A stretch of 64,000 nt of DNA from the human T2T-CHM13v2.0 reference genome, Homo sapiens: NCBI RefSeq assembly GCF_009914755.1, contig NC_060947.1; one strand, 5' to 3'. A program made the translations under genes and the position numbers. Positions 50,101 to 59,632 of the stretch are shown here, piece by piece (position 1 is the stretch's first letter; every line of letters begins with the position of its first letter). The notes below the pieces were generated by a model. It saw only the letters and a list, made by a program, of their open reading frames with translations, was not told the origin of the DNA and ran no database searches.

Positions 50101-53100
50101 CATCTACAGAACTCTCCACCCCGAATCAACCGAACATACATTCTTCTCAGAACCACATCCCACTTATTCTAAAATTGGTCACATTATTCAAAATAAAACA
50201 CACCTCAGCAAATGCAAAAGAATGGAAATCATGACGAACAGTCTCTCAGATGACAGTGCAATCAAATTAGAACTCAAGATTAAGAAACTCACTCAAAACT
50301 TCACAACTACATGAAACTGAACAACCTTCTCCTGAATGACTACTGGGTAAATAAAGTAATTAAGGCAGAAATCAGTAAGTTATTCGAAAGCAATGAGAAC
50401 AAAGACACAACATACCAGAAATTCTGGGACACAGCTAAAGCAATGTTTAGAGGGAAATTTATAGCACTACAGGCCCATAGGAGAAAGCAGGAAAGATCTA
50501 AAATTGACACCTTAAAATCACAATTTTAAAAAACTAGAGAAGCAAGAACAAACAAATTCAAAAGCTAGCAGAAGACAAGAAATAACTAAGATCAGAGCAG
50601 AACTGAAGGAGATAGAAACACGAAAAACCCATCAAAAAATCAATGACTCTAGGAGCTGGTTTTATGAAAAGTTTAATAAAATAGCCAGACTAATAAAGAA
50701 GAAAACAGAAAGGAATCAAATAGACACAATAATAAGTGATAAAGGGGATATCACCACTGATTCCACAGAAACACAAAACTACCATTAGAGAATACTATAA
50801 ATACCTCTATTCAAATATACTAGAAAATCTAGAAGAAATGGATCAATTCCTGGACACACACACCCTTTCAAGACTAAACCAGGAAGAAGTCCAATCCCTG
50901 AATAGAACAATAGCAAGTACTAAAATTGAGGCAGTAATTAATAGCCTACCAACCAAAAAAAGCCCAGGACCAGATGGATTCACAGCCAAAGTCTACCGGA
51001 AGTAGAAACAGGAGCTGGTACCATTCCTTCCAAAACTATTCCAAACAATAGAAAAAGAGGGACTCCTCCCTAACTCATTTCATGAGGCCAGCATCATCCT
51101 AATACCAAAGCCCAGCAGAGACACAACAAAAAAACAAAATTTCGGGCCAATATCCCTGATGAACATCAATGTGAAAATCCTCAATGAAATACAGGCAAAC
51201 CGAATCCAGCAGCACATCAAAAAGCTTATCCACCACGATCAAGTCGGCTTCATCCCTGGGATGCAAGGCTAATTCAACATATGCAATTCAATAAATGTAA
51301 TCCATCACATAAACAGAACCAATGACAAAAACCATATGATTATTTCAATAGATGTAGAAAAGGCCTTTGTGAAAATTCAACACTCCTTCATGCTAAAAAT
51401 TCTCAACAAACTAGGTATTGATGGAATGTATTTCAAAATAATAAGAGCTATTTATGACAAACCCACAGCCAATATCATACTGAATGGGCAAAAGCTGGAA
51501 GCATTCTCTTTGAAAATCGGCACAAGACAAGAATGCCCTCTCTCACCACTCCTATTCAACATAGTATTGGAAATTCTGGCCAGGGAAATCAGGCAAGAGA
51601 ATGAAATAAAGGGCATTCAAATAGAAAAAGAGGAAGTTGAATTCTCCCTGTTTGCAGATGACATGACTATTTAGAAAACCCAATCGTCTCAGCCCCAAAT
51701 CTCCTTAAGCTGATAAGCAAATTCAGCAAAGTCTCAGGATACAAAATCAATGTGCAAAAATCACAAGCATTCCTATACACCAATAATAGATAAACAGAGA
51801 GCCAAATCAGGAATGAACTTCCATTCACAATTGCTACAAAGATAATAAGATGTCTAGGAATACAACTTACAAGGGATGTGATAGACCTCTTCTAGGAGAA
51901 CTACAAACCACAGCTCAAGGAAATAAGAGAGGACACAAATAAATGCTAAAAAATTCCAAGCTCATGGGTAGGAAGAATTAATATCATGAATATGGCCATA
52001 CTTCCTAAAGTAATTTATAGATTCAACGCTATCCTCATCAAGATAACATTGAATTTCTTCATAGAATTAGATAAAACTACTTTAAATTTCATATGGAACC
52101 AAGAAACAGACCGTATAGCCAAGACAATCCTTAGCAAAAGAACAAAGCTGGAGGCATCATGCTACCTGACTTCAAACTATGCTACAAGGCTACAGTAACC
52201 AAAACAGCATGGTACTGGTACCAAAACAGATATATAGGCCAATAGAACAGAACAGAGGCCTCAGAAATAACACCACACATCTACAACCATCTGATCTTTG
52301 ACAAAGCTGACAAGAACAAGCAATGGGGAATGGATTCCCTATTTAATAAATAGTGTTGGGAAAACTGTCTAGTCATATACAGAAAACTGAAACTGGACCC
52401 CTTCCTTACACCTTATACAAAAATTAACTCAAGATTGATTAAAGACTTACATGTGAGACCTGAAATTATAAAAAACCCTAGAAGAAAACCTAGGCAATAC
52501 CATTCAGGACATAGGCATGGGCAAAGTCTTCATGACTAAAATACCCAAAGCAATGGCAACAAAAGACAAAATTGACAAATCAGACCTAATTCAACTAAAG
52601 AGCTTCTGCACAGCAAAAGAAGCTGTCATCAGAGTGAACAGGCAACCTACAGAACAGGAGAAAATTTTGGCAATCTCTCCATCTGACAATGGGCTAATAG
52701 CCAGAATCTTCAAAGAAAAAAAATTTACAGGAAACAAACAAACAGCCCCATAAAAAGTGGGTGAAGGATATGAAAGACACTTCTCAAAAGAAGACATTTA
52801 TGCAGCCAATAAACATATGAAAAAAAGCTCATCATCACTGGTCATTAGAGAAATGCAAATCAAAACTACAATGAGAAGATACCATCTCACACCAGTTAGA
52901 ATGGTGATCATTAAAAAGTCAGGAAACAACAGATGCTGGAGAAGATGTGGAGAAACAGGAACACTTTCACGCTTTTGGTAGGAGTGTAAATTACTTCAAC
53001 CAATGTGAAAGACTGTGTGGCGATTCCTCAAGGATCTAGAACCAGAAATAACATTTGACCCAGCAATCCCATTACTGGTATATACCCAAAGGATTATAAA

Positions 53101-53590
53101 TCATTCTACTATAAAGACACATGCACATGTATGTTTATTGCAGCACTATTCACAATAGCAAAGACTTGGAACCAACCCAAATGCCCATCAATGATAGGCT
53201 GGATAAAGAAAATGTGGTACGTGGAATACCATGCAGCCATACAAAGGAATGAGTTCATGTCCTTTGCAGGGACATGGATGAAACTGGAAACCATCATTCT
53301 CAGCAAACTAACACAGGAAGGGAAAACCAAACACCACATGTTCTCCCTCATAAGTGGGAGTTGAACAGTGAGAATACATGGAAACAGGGAGGGGAAACAT
53401 CACATACTGGAGCCTGTCAGTTGTGGGGGGCAAGGGGAGGGAGAGCATTAGGACAAATACCTAATGCATGAGGGGCTTAAAACCTAGATGATGGGTTGAT
53501 GGGTGCAGCAAACCACCATGGCACATGTATACCTGTGTAACAAACCTGCACATTCTGCACATGTATCCCAGAACTTAAAGCAAAATAAAA
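47139..53590 (+). mobile_element. full-length decayed LINE-1, L1PA7-like
   Basis: ggtggctggcaagatggccgaatagg 5' end; ORF1 about 48489-49520 (start codon mutated to ATA); ORF2 about 49566-53364 disrupted, with EN and RT fragments (FSLFADDM); 3'UTR present. Confidence 0.97.
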
Positions 53591-54420
53591 AAGGAAAACA
53601 TGCTCAACATCACTAATCATTAGAGAAAAGCAAATGAGAACAACAATGAGGTACCATCTTATGCCAGTCAGAATGGCTATTAAAAAGTCAAAAAAACGAC
53701 AGATATTGGCAAGGATGCAGAGAAAAAGGAATGCTTATACACTGGTGGAAATGTAAATTCGCAAAACCTGAACAAAAAACATTATGGAAATTTCTCAAAG
53801 TACTAAATATACAACTACCTATTACTCAGCAATCCCATTACTTGGTATCTTCCAAAAAGAAAATACATCATTGCATTAAAAAGATACCTGCACTTGCATG
53901 TCTATTGCAGCACTATTAAATAGTAAAGACATGGAATCAACCTAAGTGTCCATCAACAGAAGATTGAATAAAGAATGTATGGTATTTATATGCCATGGAA
54001 TACTACTCAGCCATGAAAAAGAATAAAATCATGTCTTTTGCAACAACATGGATGAGACTGGAGGCCATTATCTTAAATAAAATAACTCTGAAAGAGAAAG
54101 TCAAATACCACATGTTCTCACTTATAAGTGGGAGCTAAATATTGTGTACACATGGGCACAGAGAGTGGAATAATAGACAGTGGAGACTCCAAAAAGTGGG
54201 AGGGTGGGAGACGGGTGAGGGATGAGAAATTATCTGTTGGGTACAATGTAAGCCATGCAGCCTTTCAAGTGATGGACACACTAAAAGCCCATACTCTACC
54301 ATTTCTCAATATACCCATGTAACAAAATGCACTTGTGCCCCCTAAATCTACAAAAAAGCTTTTAAAAAGAAAACGGTAAAAAATAATTTAAAAAAAAACA
54401 ATGTACATACATTAAAAAGA
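53591..54420 (+). mobile_element. older L1 (L1PB/MA-like) 3' end
   Basis: atgctcaacatcactaatcattagag...gggtgagggatgagaaattatctgttgggtacaatgta...A-rich tail. Confidence 0.85.
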
Positions 54421-54559
54421 AACAACTTTGTGGGATTTCTATATTGGGGATGGCAAAGACAATAAAGAAAGGGGCTATGATGTTTCACAAAAAGAAATAG
54501 AGAATCAGAAATAAGCAGTGTCATGGCAGCCAAGAAAGGGATCTAGTAAAGTACCGTAG

Positions 54560-58240: not shown

Positions 58241-58374
58241 GAAATAGTATATAAAAATAAAAACGTAAATTTCTCTGCACTTGTAGGGAGAGAAGGTCCA
58301 TAGCTTTCATCAAAGAATTTGGTGAATCCTTGCCTTAGGGGTTGGGGCTCCGGGCCAGGGACAACATAGTATAA

Positions 58375-58510
58375 CAATAATGCAGAACTGTAGAGCCAGA
58401 CTTTCTGGTTTCACATCTTTACCTCTCTAAATCCTTCCTATGTCATCTTAGGCAATGCACTTAACCTGTTTCAGACTCAGTTTCTTTATCTATAAAATGA
58501 AGATAACAGC
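58375..58510 (+). mobile_element. MIR SINE
   Basis: tagagccagactttctggtttc...actcagtttctttatctataaaatga. Confidence 0.75.
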
Positions 58511-58515
58511 TGTGC

Positions 58516-59632
58516 TGACTTTTTAATAGACATTCTGACTGGCATAAGATGGTACCTCGTTGTTTTCATTTGCTCTTCTCTGATGATTAGTGATGTTGAG
58601 CATGTTTTCCTTTTTTAATTTTACTTTAAGTTCTGGGATACATGTGCAGAATGTGCAGGTTTGTTACACAGGTATACATGTGCCATGGTGGTTTGCTGCA
58701 CCCATCAACCCATCATCTAGGTTTTAAGCCCCTCATGCATTAGGTATTTGTCCTAATGCTCTCCCTCCTCTTCCCCCACCCCGACAGGCTCCAGTGTGTG
58801 ATGTTTCCCTCCCTGTTTTCATGTGTTCTCACTGTTCAACTCCCACTTATGAGGGAGAACATGTGGTGTTTGGTTTTCTGCTCCTGTGTTAGTTTGCTGA
58901 GAATGATGGTTTCCAGTTTCATCCATGTCCCTGCAAAGGACATGGACTCATCCTTTTTTATGGCTGCATAGTATTGCATGGTGTGTATGTGCCACATTTT
59001 CTTTATCCAGTCTATCATTGATGGACATTTGGCTTGGTTCCAAGTCTTTGCTATTGTAAATAGTGTTGCAATAAACATACATGTGCATGTGTCTTTATAG
59101 TAGAATGATTTATAATCCTTTGAGTATATACCCAGTAATGGAATTGCTGGGTCAAATGTTATTTCTGGTTCTAGATACTTGAGGAATCACCACACTGTCT
59201 TCCACAATGGTTGAATTAATTTACACTCCCGATAACAGTGTAAAAGCGTTCATCCCATTCAAGACATAGGCATGGGCAAAGACTTCATGACTAAAACACC
59301 AAAAGCAATAGCAACAAAAGCCAGAATTTACAAATTGGATCTAATTAAACTAAAGAGCTTCTGCACAACAAAAGAAACTATCGTCAGAGTGAACAGGTAA
59401 CCTACAGAATGGGATAAAATTTTTCCTATGTTTATGTTGGCCACTTATGTGCTTTCTTTTGAAAAATGTCTGTTCATGTATTTTGCCCACTTTTTAATTG
59501 GTTATTTGTGTTTGTTTCTTGTTCAGTTGTTTGAGCTCCTTGTAGATTCTGGATATTAGTCTTTTGTTGGATGCCTAATTTGCAAATATGTTATTCTATT
59601 CTGTAGGTTGTCTGTTTACTTCATTGATTAAG
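58516..59632 (-). mobile_element. older L1 fragment (58516-58610 and 59425-59632) interrupted by an L1PA7-like insertion
   Basis: gatgattagtgatgttgagcatgttttcc resumes as tatgtttatgttggccacttatgtg after the insertion. Confidence 0.8.
58611..59424 (-). mobile_element. 5'-inverted (twin-primed) L1PA7-like element
   Basis: Minus 3' part at 58611-59250; plus-oriented ORF2 piece at 59254-59424; short TSD ttttcct. Confidence 0.9.

What the first reader, a model, noticed from the sequence alone, without database searches (positions are those of the whole stretch)
52970..59250. Inverted duplication of an L1 3' end together with its insertion junction (about 0.7-kb arms, 4.8-kb spacer)
Seen: 53574-53690 (cttaaagcaaaataaaaaaggaaaacatgctcaacatcactaatc...gaggtaccatcttatgccagtcagaatggctattaaaaagtca) is the near-exact reverse complement of about 58516-58630, including the L1 tail and about 95 bp of flank. 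The two L1 3' ends share variants that differ from the recalled consensus: ttctcCctcat, aacaGtgag, gcatgAgggg and acctGtgtaac (all absent from the related copy at 27277-27545), plus gaaataAcattt. The host older L1 is split: its upstream part lies at 59425-59632 (-) and a 3' end lies at 53591-54420 (+). Two independent insertions would not share a junction, and the right copy is truncated and twin-primed, so it could not have been a source element. Inference: an old gene conversion, template switch or inversion between inverted L1s. The interval may be, or once have been, invertible, which would flip the enclosed CpG/CTCF element.
Basis: partly seen in the sequence, partly recalled or inferred. 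Interest (0 to 1): 0.8.

Follow-up and report, generated by a model that had tools for sequence, protein, structure and literature searches.

The report
Ancient L1-mediated inversion with duplicated junction
A 4.8-kb piece of the human X chromosome was flipped tens of millions of years ago by a repair event between two oppositely oriented L1 retrotransposons, which copied about 350-440 bases of one L1 end and its flank to the other side; it is a clean example of a known kind of rearrangement.

Summary
The inverted repeat is real: 52981-53690 (+) matches 59229-58516 (-) at 92.8%. The L1-tail/flank junction occurs at high identity only at these two places among the genome candidates scored.

The right copy is a genuine twin-primed L1PA insertion inside an older L1, here called O. 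The left copy is the 3' end of a full-length L1PA, 47141-53588, which has no matching target-site duplication.

The inversion can be shown from this genome alone. O's own 17-bp target-site duplication occurs exactly twice in the window: at 54424-54440 (+) after O's tail and at 59631-59647 (-) outside O's 5' end. O was therefore one element, and 53691-58515 was later flipped.

Only about 345-440 bp is truly duplicated: the L1 3' end from somewhere in 53249-53346, the tail, and 95-98 bp of O. The rest of the 0.7-kb arms is no closer than unrelated copies of the same L1 subfamilies.

The best mechanism is a homology-guided switch from the left L1 into the right one, templated copying to the break in O, and a non-homologous join at 58515|58516.

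Flank divergence of about 5% makes the event old. A 145-bp identical block suggests later arm-to-arm gene conversion.

This is a known kind of rearrangement and of modest interest.

The parts
47122..47139 (+). 5' flank of the left L1 (expected 5' target-site duplication), now without a partner
   Evidence: The 18-mer with up to 3 mismatches is found once, as itself. The 14-mer with up to 2 mismatches has 5 hits, none near either arm.
47141..53588 (+). L: full-length L1PA element. Its body is original (L0); its 3' end is replaced by a copy of R's 3' end.
   Evidence: Collinear with the in-window reference L1: 48269-53588 = reference 766-6059 in one HSP, and 48020-48135 = reference 515-629. The 5' end is read and compared with the reference L1's 5' end.
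52960..53248 (+). 5' part of the left 'arm': ordinary L1-L1 paralogy, with no evidence of duplication
   Evidence: L-to-R distances lie within the distances to the panel copies. L and R differ at lineage-polymorphic sites 53021, 53151, 53184 and 53248. One rare shared variant, 53051A (1/41), is left unexplained.
53249..53345 (+). Zone that holds the L0-to-R switch point x (unresolved within it)
   Evidence: 4 substitutions in 97 bp between the arms. The first very rare shared variant is at 53346 and the last lineage-site difference is at 53248.
53346..53690 (+). Left copy of the duplicated tract (minimum extent): L1 3' end, tail 53581-53592, and 98 bp of the old L1 O (53593-53690)
   Evidence: Rare shared variants 53346C 1/53, 53383A 1/53, 53471A 3/53. 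Shared tail and flank. The junction is found only twice at high identity among the scored genome candidates.
53436..53580 (+). 145-bp block identical between the arms (partner 58624-58768): probable later arm-to-arm gene conversion
   Evidence: 0 differences in 145 bp, against 9 substitutions and 3 indels in the other 183 bp of duplicated sequence.
53691..54423 (+). Rest of old L1 O (3' part and A-rich tail), now inverted relative to O's 5' part
   Evidence: Runs on without a break from 53593 through 53690|53691 against 5 reference old-L1 copies. 53595-54161 = reference L1 5304-5876. Tail read.
54424..54440 (+). 3' target-site duplication of O
   Evidence: The 17-mer occurs exactly twice in the window, here and at 59631-59647 (-). 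0 of 100 shuffles gave 2 matches.
53691..58515 (.). Inverted segment (4,825 bp). It holds O's 3' part, an inverted Alu pair and a single-copy CpG-enriched stretch.
   Evidence: Inferred from the orientation of O's parts and target-site duplications. Contents.
58515..58516 (.). Non-homologous junction: unique (MIR-like, by recall) sequence joined to the 95th base of O's flank copy
   Evidence: Similarity between the arms stops here, and no A-run follows the O sequence.
58516..58610 (-). Right, original 95 bp of O directly downstream of R
   Evidence: Starts at the same reference position as the left copy. It overlaps the end of O's 5' part by 6-7 bp on reference copies.
58611..59251 (-). R: sense segment and short tail of a twin-primed L1PA insertion
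   Evidence: 58618-59251 = reference L1 6057-5440, 84.5%.
59255..59423 (+). R: 5' segment inverted by twin priming
   Evidence: = reference L1 4977-5145, 89.9%, opposite in orientation to R's sense segment. It is no closer to L (88.2%) than to other copies in the window (89-90%).
59420..59630 (-). 5' part of old L1 O
   Evidence: 59620-59420 = reference L1 5110-5307. It matches the same reference old-L1 copies as the left part.
59631..59647 (-). 5' target-site duplication of O

Best explanation
Starting arrangement. Two L1PA elements lay about 5 kb apart in opposite orientation. L0 was a full-length element on the + strand. R was a twin-primed, truncated element on the - strand, inserted into an older 5'-truncated L1, O, which was also on the - strand.

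The event. A single old break-repair or replication event flipped the DNA between them.
- On the left, the L0 end switched, guided by L1 homology, into R somewhere in 53249-53345.
- It then copied R's last 240-340 bp, R's tail and 95-98 bp of O, and ran on into the rest of O, which is now on the + strand.
- On the right, R and its 95 bp of O stayed in place and were joined without homology at 58515|58516 to the far end of the flipped segment.
- L0's own 3' end, tail and 3' target-site duplication were lost.

The result. A 4.8-kb inversion flanked by a 345-440 bp inverted duplication, embedded in 0.7 kb of ordinary L1-L1 similarity. Later, a stretch of at least 145 bp of the arms was homogenised by gene conversion.

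Shown versus inferred. Shown: the inversion, the duplication and its minimum extent, R's integrity, and L's missing target-site duplication. Inferred: that it was a single event, the exact switch point, and the enzymology (templated synthesis up to a second break versus a replicative template switch).
For: 1. O was a single element. Its 17-bp target-site duplication occurs exactly twice in 64 kb: after O's tail at 54424-54440 (+), and outside O's 5' end at 59631-59647 (-) (0 of 100 shuffles gave 2 matches).
2. O is continuous across R. On 5 reference old-L1 copies, the end of O's 5' part and the start of O's 95-bp piece overlap by 6-7 bp. The left O runs through 53690|53691 without a break.
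3. R has the twin-priming anatomy.
4. L is full length, 47141-53588. Its 5' flank has no second copy in the window, and the flank upstream of it is not O.
5. The tail-plus-flank junction is 95% identical between the arms. The next best of 40 scored candidates (out of 5,725) is at most 85% and covers only the old-L1 part.
6. Rare shared variants lie at 53346, 53383 and 53471 (1/53, 1/53, 3/53). The block 53436-53580 is 0 differences against a minimum of 4 to any of 26 panel copies.
7. Upstream of 53249, L and R are no closer than unrelated copies.
8. The duplicated flank and adjoining parts carry 9 substitutions and 3 indels in 183 bp, so the event is old.
Against: - No outgroup genome could be examined, so the ancestral arrangement is inferred from this genome only.
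- The switch point is poorly resolved. One rare shared variant lies far upstream (53051A, 1/41). In 53021-53151 the L-to-R distance (7) is below the 5th percentile of panel pairs (9). The tract could therefore start earlier, or there may be extra conversion patches.
- In 53346-53435 the arms differ at 11 events, about as many as unrelated copies do (minimum 9-11). Six of those events cluster in the G-rich 53419-53435.
- The subfamily test for a chimeric L was inconclusive. L's site pattern fits a natural intermediate, and one panel copy (L066) combines the 'younger' body states with the 'older' 3' UTR.
- R's own target-site duplication is short and ambiguous (2-7 bp), because R's inverted segment starts with an A-run.
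- One step versus two steps cannot be told apart from the end product.
Confidence: 0.8

Rival explanations
1. Two steps. First, plain homologous recombination between the inverted L1s (retrotransposon recombination-mediated inversion). Later, a second event copied the left arm's 3' end, tail and 95 bp of flank onto the right arm.
For: Inverted L1 pairs are known to cause inversions with chimeric elements and mismatched target-site duplications (PMC2603318, passages read). The 145-bp identical block shows that the arms do exchange sequence.
Against: After plain recombination the right arm would end in L0's tail, L0's target-site duplication and L0's flank. Replacing these by R's tail plus O needs a conversion with no homology on the far side (58515|58516). 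That second event is as complex as the one-step model on its own. R keeps both of its own junctions.
Confidence: 0.1
2. Inversion by two pairs of staggered breaks with fill-in and no role for L1 homology. Under this model the duplicated tract is simply the stretch between the staggered nicks at the right breakpoint.
For: Inverted duplications at inversion breakpoints are the hallmark of this model in Drosophila (PMC1885836, search listing and abstract only). The right-hand duplication boundary at 58516 is non-homologous.
Against: The left junction lies inside L1 and in register with L1. L is collinear with the reference L1 over 5,391 alignment columns through the arm. An in-register join in a 6-kb element is not expected without homology. 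Only one breakpoint carries a duplication; the other carries a loss.
Confidence: 0.07
3. No inversion. Two independent L1PA insertions hit the same preferred site in two different old L1s, and the arms were later homogenised across the junction by gene conversion.
For: The site is hit repeatedly. Three other loci (L004, L005, L007) have a young L1 tail abutting old-L1 ORF2 at the same A-rich place.
Against: The old L1's target-site duplication links the right 5' part to the left 3' part as one element. L has no old L1 upstream and no target-site duplication. The right old L1 stops at 58516, exactly where the left one carries on. The other three loci are only 77-78% identical by blastn and have different tails.
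Confidence: 0.02
4. 3' transduction. The full-length left L1 was the source element, read through into 95 bp of flank, and the right copy is its offspring.
For: L is full length and R is truncated. An ATTAAA lies 7 bp before the end of the shared flank.
Against: No A-tail follows the 95 bp on the right. R's 5' flank is the directly preceding part of the same old L1, which a transduced copy landing elsewhere would not have. R's body and inverted segment do not share L's private variants.
Confidence: 0.01

Closest known systems
Retrotransposon recombination-mediated inversion (RRMI; Lee et al. 2008, PMC2603318, passages read)
   Same: There is an inverted pair of L1PA elements at the breakpoints. 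One element is chimeric and has lost its matching target-site duplication. The size (4.8 kb) is within the reported range. RRMI events accompanied by loss of sequence are reported (numbers in parentheses in their Table 1).
   Different: Only one of the two elements is chimeric. R keeps both of its own junctions. One junction is non-homologous. A stretch of 345-440 bp including non-L1 flank is duplicated. RRMI as defined gives two chimeras and no duplication.
Inversions with inverted duplications at the breakpoints (staggered-break model, Ranz et al. 2007, PMC1885836; abstract and listing only)
   Same: Sequence that was single-copy at a breakpoint now flanks the inversion in inverted orientation.
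   Different: Here the duplication is at one breakpoint only, and the other junction is an in-register L1-L1 join with loss of sequence.
Transposable-element-mediated rearrangements with complex inversion breakpoints (Balachandran et al. 2022, PMC9675761, section 10 read)
   Same: The inversion is TE-mediated with extra deletion or insertion at the junctions, which that paper attributes to replicative repair such as MMBIR.
   Different: In that set the complexities were seen at Alu-mediated inversions (4 of 7) and at none of 8 L1-mediated ones. Their L1 pairs had a median similarity of 97.1%. Here the pair is L1, about 90% similar outside the duplicated tract, and the event is ancient and, as far as could be checked, not listed as polymorphic.
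L1 twin priming (recalled: Ostertag and Kazazian 2001; not read here)
   Same: The right element R has the classic structure: a 5' segment inverted relative to the 3' segment and taken from further upstream in L1.
   Different: Twin priming explains only R's internal 169-bp inversion, not the 4.8-kb inversion or the duplicated junction.

Membership tests
Retrotransposon recombination-mediated inversion (RRMI) | Two retrotransposons of one family in inverted orientation span the breakpoints | tested here: met
   L is 47141-53588 (+). R is 58611-59423 with its sense part on the - strand. Both map to the same L1 reference.
Retrotransposon recombination-mediated inversion (RRMI) | Both breakpoint elements are chimeric and neither keeps matching target-site duplications | tested here: not met
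   L has no matching duplication. R keeps its own 5' and 3' junctions within the old L1.
Retrotransposon recombination-mediated inversion (RRMI) | The intervening sequence is inverted relative to the ancestral state | tested here: met
   The old L1's parts and its 17-bp target-site duplication are in opposite orientations. No outgroup genome was compared.
Retrotransposon recombination-mediated inversion (RRMI) | Balanced: no duplication of flanking sequence | tested here: not met
   Tail plus 95-98 bp of non-L1PA flank is present on both sides.
Inversion with breakpoint inverted duplication (staggered breaks) | Ancestrally single-copy breakpoint sequence is present in inverted copies at both ends of the inversion | tested here: met
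   53346-53690 against 58516-58854. The junction is found only twice at high identity among the scored genome candidates.
Inversion with breakpoint inverted duplication (staggered breaks) | Junctions formed without use of homology | tested here: inconclusive
   The right junction is non-homologous. The left junction is in register inside L1, although a 9-bp net deletion at 53219 could be a scar.
L1 3' transduction | The transduced flank is followed by a second poly(A) tail and the offspring's own target-site duplication | tested here: not met
   No A-run follows 58516, and R's 5' flank is the preceding part of the same old L1.
Twin-primed L1 insertion (element R only) | The 5' segment is inverted relative to the 3' segment and comes from upstream L1 positions; the insertion is flanked by a target-site duplication | tested here: met
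   Inverted part = reference 4977-5145; sense part = reference 5440-6057. The target overlap is 6-7 bp on reference copies but ambiguous at 2-7 bp because of an A-run.
Polymorphic inversion mediated by inverted repeats (NAHR, recurrent) | Both orientations are present among humans | not testable with these tools
   The locus is not among the 17 inversions of PMC3961182 or the chrX entries of the 45 in PMC6748972 (supplementary files 13-14 not searched). No coordinate-word hit was found in the supplements of PMC9675761 or PMC12350158. The hg38 coordinates used were my own estimate from a recalled gene position.

The most novel reading that the evidence does not exclude
The two L1 arms are still recombining, as the 145-bp identical block suggests. 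On this reading the 4.8-kb interval, which holds a single-copy CpG-enriched stretch (57700-58060), flips recurrently in primates or humans. That would make it an unrecognised small toggling inversion between EDA2R and AR on the X chromosome.
Probability: 0.06. Interest if true: 0.55.

Novelty: new member of a known kind. Interest (0 to 1): 0.3.

Why it matters
The locus shows that an old inversion and its mode of origin can be read from one genome. The evidence needed is a host repeat whose target-site duplication is split into opposite orientations, an intact insertion on one side, and a chimeric element lacking its target-site duplication on the other.

It also documents an L1-L1 inversion with one homologous junction and one non-homologous junction plus a templated duplication. 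The L1-mediated polymorphic inversions surveyed in PMC9675761 did not show this pattern (0 of 8).

The functional consequence is probably nil. The region is intergenic, and the event long predates humans.

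Tried and rejected
1. Subfamily chimerism as proof that L's 3' end is foreign.
- Two panels of genomic copies differ at few sites. L carries the 'younger' states at 52356, 52457 and 53151 and the 'older' states from 53248 onward.
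- One panel copy (L066) naturally combines the younger body states with the older 3' UTR.
- The test is therefore inconclusive.

2. Placing the switch point by distance alone.
- With the first panel, 53346-53433 looked closer between the arms than to any panel copy.
- With the better-matched second panel it did not (11 against a minimum of 9-11).
- Only rare shared variants and lineage-site differences place the switch point in 53249-53345.

3. Search for L's lost 3' target-site duplication: no second copy in the window. The purine-rich 10/15 likeness between L's 5' flank and the sequence after its present tail is my own by-eye comparison and is not convincing.

4. Literature and supplement look-ups for a known polymorphic inversion here: none found.
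- Porubsky et al. 2022 is not held.
- bioRxiv supplements are closed, and files 13-14 of PMC6748972 were not searched. A listing there cannot be excluded.

5. A strict CTCF core pattern (recalled motif): no match in the window.

6. Rfam on 53600-58600: only sub-threshold Alu/SRP-like and Alu-derived miRNA-family hits.

Full report
**Observation.**
The inverted repeat exists as described. The repeat finder returns a collinear series of inverted pairs over 52959-53690 and 58516-59251. One blastn HSP joins 52981-53690 to 59229-58516 at 92.8% over 721 columns (alignment). The similarity runs through the L1 3' end, a short irregular tail (53581-53592 and 58623-58611) and 95-98 bp of flank. It stops sharply at 53690 and 58516.

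A search of the whole assembly with 53520-53760 scored 40 of 5,725 candidates. It returned the query itself, the right arm at 95% (query 1-171), and otherwise only matches of 85% or less that cover the old-L1 part, plus three 76-77% matches discussed below.

**Anatomy.**
I used the near-full-length L1 at 14700-20800 (-) as a coordinate reference.
- The left arm is the 3' end of a full-length L1PA, here called L. 48269-53588 equals reference 766-6059 in one HSP, and the 5' end lies at about 47141.
- The right element, R, is twin-primed. Its sense part, 59251 down to 58618, equals reference 5440-6057. Its 5' part, 59255-59423, equals reference 4977-5145 in the opposite orientation.
- R sits in an older L1, here called O. 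O's 5' part, 59620 down to 59420, equals reference 5110-5307.
- The 95 bp after R's tail start at reference 5304. On the left the same sequence starts at 53593 and continues to O's 3' end (53595-54161 = reference 5304-5876; tail to 54423).
- Against five independent old-L1 copies from the genome, the end of O's 5' part and the start of the 95 bp overlap by 6-7 bp. The left O passes 53690|53691 without a break.

R is therefore a normal insertion into an intact O. Its target-site duplication is short and ambiguous at 2-7 bp, because R's inverted segment begins with an A-run.

**Proof of inversion.**
O is 5'-truncated at about 59620-59630. The sequence just outside its 5' end and the sequence just after its A-rich tail share a 17-mer with one purine difference. 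That 17-mer occurs exactly twice in the 64-kb window: 54424-54440 (+) and 59631-59647 (-). None of 100 shuffles gave two matches.

This is O's target-site duplication. O was one element on one strand. Its 3' part and 3' duplication now lie inverted, 4.8 kb from the rest. The segment 53691-58515 has therefore been inverted after R inserted.

This rejects the reading that two old L1s were hit independently.

**How much is really duplicated.**
I compared L and R with two panels of genomic copies.
- Panel 1: 29 copies chosen on 52600-53588.
- Panel 2: 28 copies chosen on 53300-53588. This panel fits the arms' 3' end much better (median 91.2% against 82.1%).

For 52960-53248, L-to-R distances lie inside the spread of distances to unrelated copies. 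L and R also carry different states at sites that vary between L1 lineages: 53021, 53151, 53184 and 53248.

From 53346 onward the arms share very rare states: 53346C 1/53, 53383A 1/53, 53471A 3/53. In 53436-53580 they differ at 0 of 145 positions, while the nearest of 26 panel copies differs at 4.

The switch from L's own sequence to R-derived sequence therefore lies most likely in 53249-53345. The duplicated tract is 345-440 bp, not 0.7 kb.

Results against a clean picture:
- A rare shared state lies at 53051 (1/41).
- The L-to-R distance in 53021-53151 is low (7, below the 5th percentile of panel pairs, which is 9).
- 11 differences fall in 53346-53435, six of them within the G-rich 53419-53435.

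These may be extra conversion patches or mutation clusters. I could not decide between the two.

**The left element lacks its own end.**
L's 5' flank word has no second copy in the window. The sequence upstream of L is not O. L's original 3' end, tail and 3' duplication are therefore gone.

**Mechanism.**
One event explains all of this. The end of L0, broken or stalled inside its last few hundred bases, paired with the inverted R by L1 homology. It copied R's 3' end, R's tail and 95-98 bp of O, and became continuous with the rest of O on the flipped segment. The other end of the flipped segment had lost L0's 3' end and some flank, and was joined without homology to the retained 95 bp at 58515|58516.

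Two versions give the same product, and I cannot separate them:
- two double-strand breaks, with synthesis that runs off the template at the break in O;
- a replicative template switch with a second, non-homologous switch.

Plain recombination between the inverted L1s (RRMI; PMC2603318) would leave two chimeras and no duplicated flank, so it would need a second complex event. A purely non-homologous staggered-break inversion does not explain an in-register join inside L1, given that L is collinear with the reference over 5,391 columns. However, the 9-bp net deletion at 53219, which is surrounded by L-only changes, could be read as a scar.

3' transduction from L to R fails on three counts: there is no second tail, R's 5' flank is the preceding part of O, and R does not share L's private variants.

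**Age and later history.**
Outside the identical block and the G-rich cluster, the duplicated parts differ by 9 substitutions and 3 indels in 183 bp, about 5%.

With a recalled primate X rate near 1e-9 per site per year, this is roughly 25 Myr, with wide error (about 11-47 Myr). At 6.5 Myr about 2.4 substitutions would be expected, so the event predates the human-chimpanzee split.

The 145-bp block without a difference is unexpected at 5% (probability about 1e-3). It points to later gene conversion between the arms.

**The junction site is a repeated target.**
Three of the 40 scored hits (L004, L005, L007) are other loci where a young L1 3' end and a long A-tail abut old-L1 ORF2 at the same A-rich place. 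Shared junctions of this kind are therefore not impossible by independent insertion. Here the 95% identity, the same odd short tail and O's target-site duplication rule that out.

**Known or new.**
I found no listing of a polymorphic inversion here.
- It is not among the 17 inversions of PMC3961182.
- It is not among the chrX entries of the 45 in PMC6748972 (two supplementary files were not searched).
- There was no coordinate-word hit in the supplements of PMC9675761 or PMC12350158. The hg38 positions were my estimate from a recalled gene coordinate.
- Porubsky et al. 2022 was not available.

The kind of event, a TE-mediated inversion with breakpoint complexity, is known. In PMC9675761, however, none of 8 L1-mediated inversions had complex junctions.

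**Interior.**
The flipped segment holds O's 3' part, an inverted Alu pair and a single-copy CpG-enriched stretch at about 57700-58060 (GC 0.56-0.57, observed/expected CpG 0.73-0.78). A strict CTCF core pattern, recalled from memory, did not match anywhere in the window. Whether the interval still flips could not be tested.

**Verdict.**
The duplication is half as long as claimed, and the event is an ancient fossil of a known kind. Interest is modest.

Noticed in passing
L004 (about 1510-1750), L005 (1501-1746), L007 (1501-1750); window 53581-53600: Three other genomic loci have a young L1 3' end and a long A-tail abutting old-L1 ORF2 at the same A-rich place as R's insertion, within about 7 bp. 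This suggests a recurrent nested-insertion site inside L1 ORF2. The search was biased towards such combinations, so no frequency can be given.
   Followed up: partly
window 53198-53250 and 52963-53014: There are two clusters of changes private to the left L1: 8-9 events in about 50-60 bp each, including a 9-bp net deletion at 53219 that 0 of 46 panel copies share. Between them lies a stretch (53021-53197) where L is unusually close to the family majority (3 events in 178 bp, against a panel mean of 8.5). The cause is unknown. It could be a repair scar, conversion patches or chance.
   Followed up: partly
window 58769-58782 (partner 53419-53435): A cluster of changes private to the right arm lies in the G-rich part of the L1 3' UTR: 3 substitutions and 2 indels in 17 bp, directly next to the 145-bp identical block.
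   Followed up: no
window 55333-55839 and 57266-57566: An inverted pair of Alu-like elements lies inside the flipped segment (79-88% complementary, 1.4-2.0 kb apart). Rfam gives only sub-threshold SRP and Alu-derived miRNA-family hits there.
   Followed up: partly
window 57660-58100: A CpG-enriched stretch (12 CpG per 200 bp, GC 0.56-0.57) is single-copy in the whole assembly and has no Rfam match. Its nature is unknown.
   Followed up: partly
window 46579-47778: The RefSeq 'enhancer' feature given in the hub annotation overlaps the first 640 bp (5' UTR) of the full-length left L1, which starts at about 47141.
   Followed up: no
panel loci L043-L070: Some pairs of the 28 panel copies are identical over whole blocks (minimum pairwise distance 0). 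Two pairs of loci lie within about 30-120 kb of each other on one chromosome (contig 1 near 108.3/108.4 Mb; contig 3 near 175.27/175.31 Mb). These are probably segmental duplicates and not independent insertions. They were not removed from the panel.
   Followed up: no
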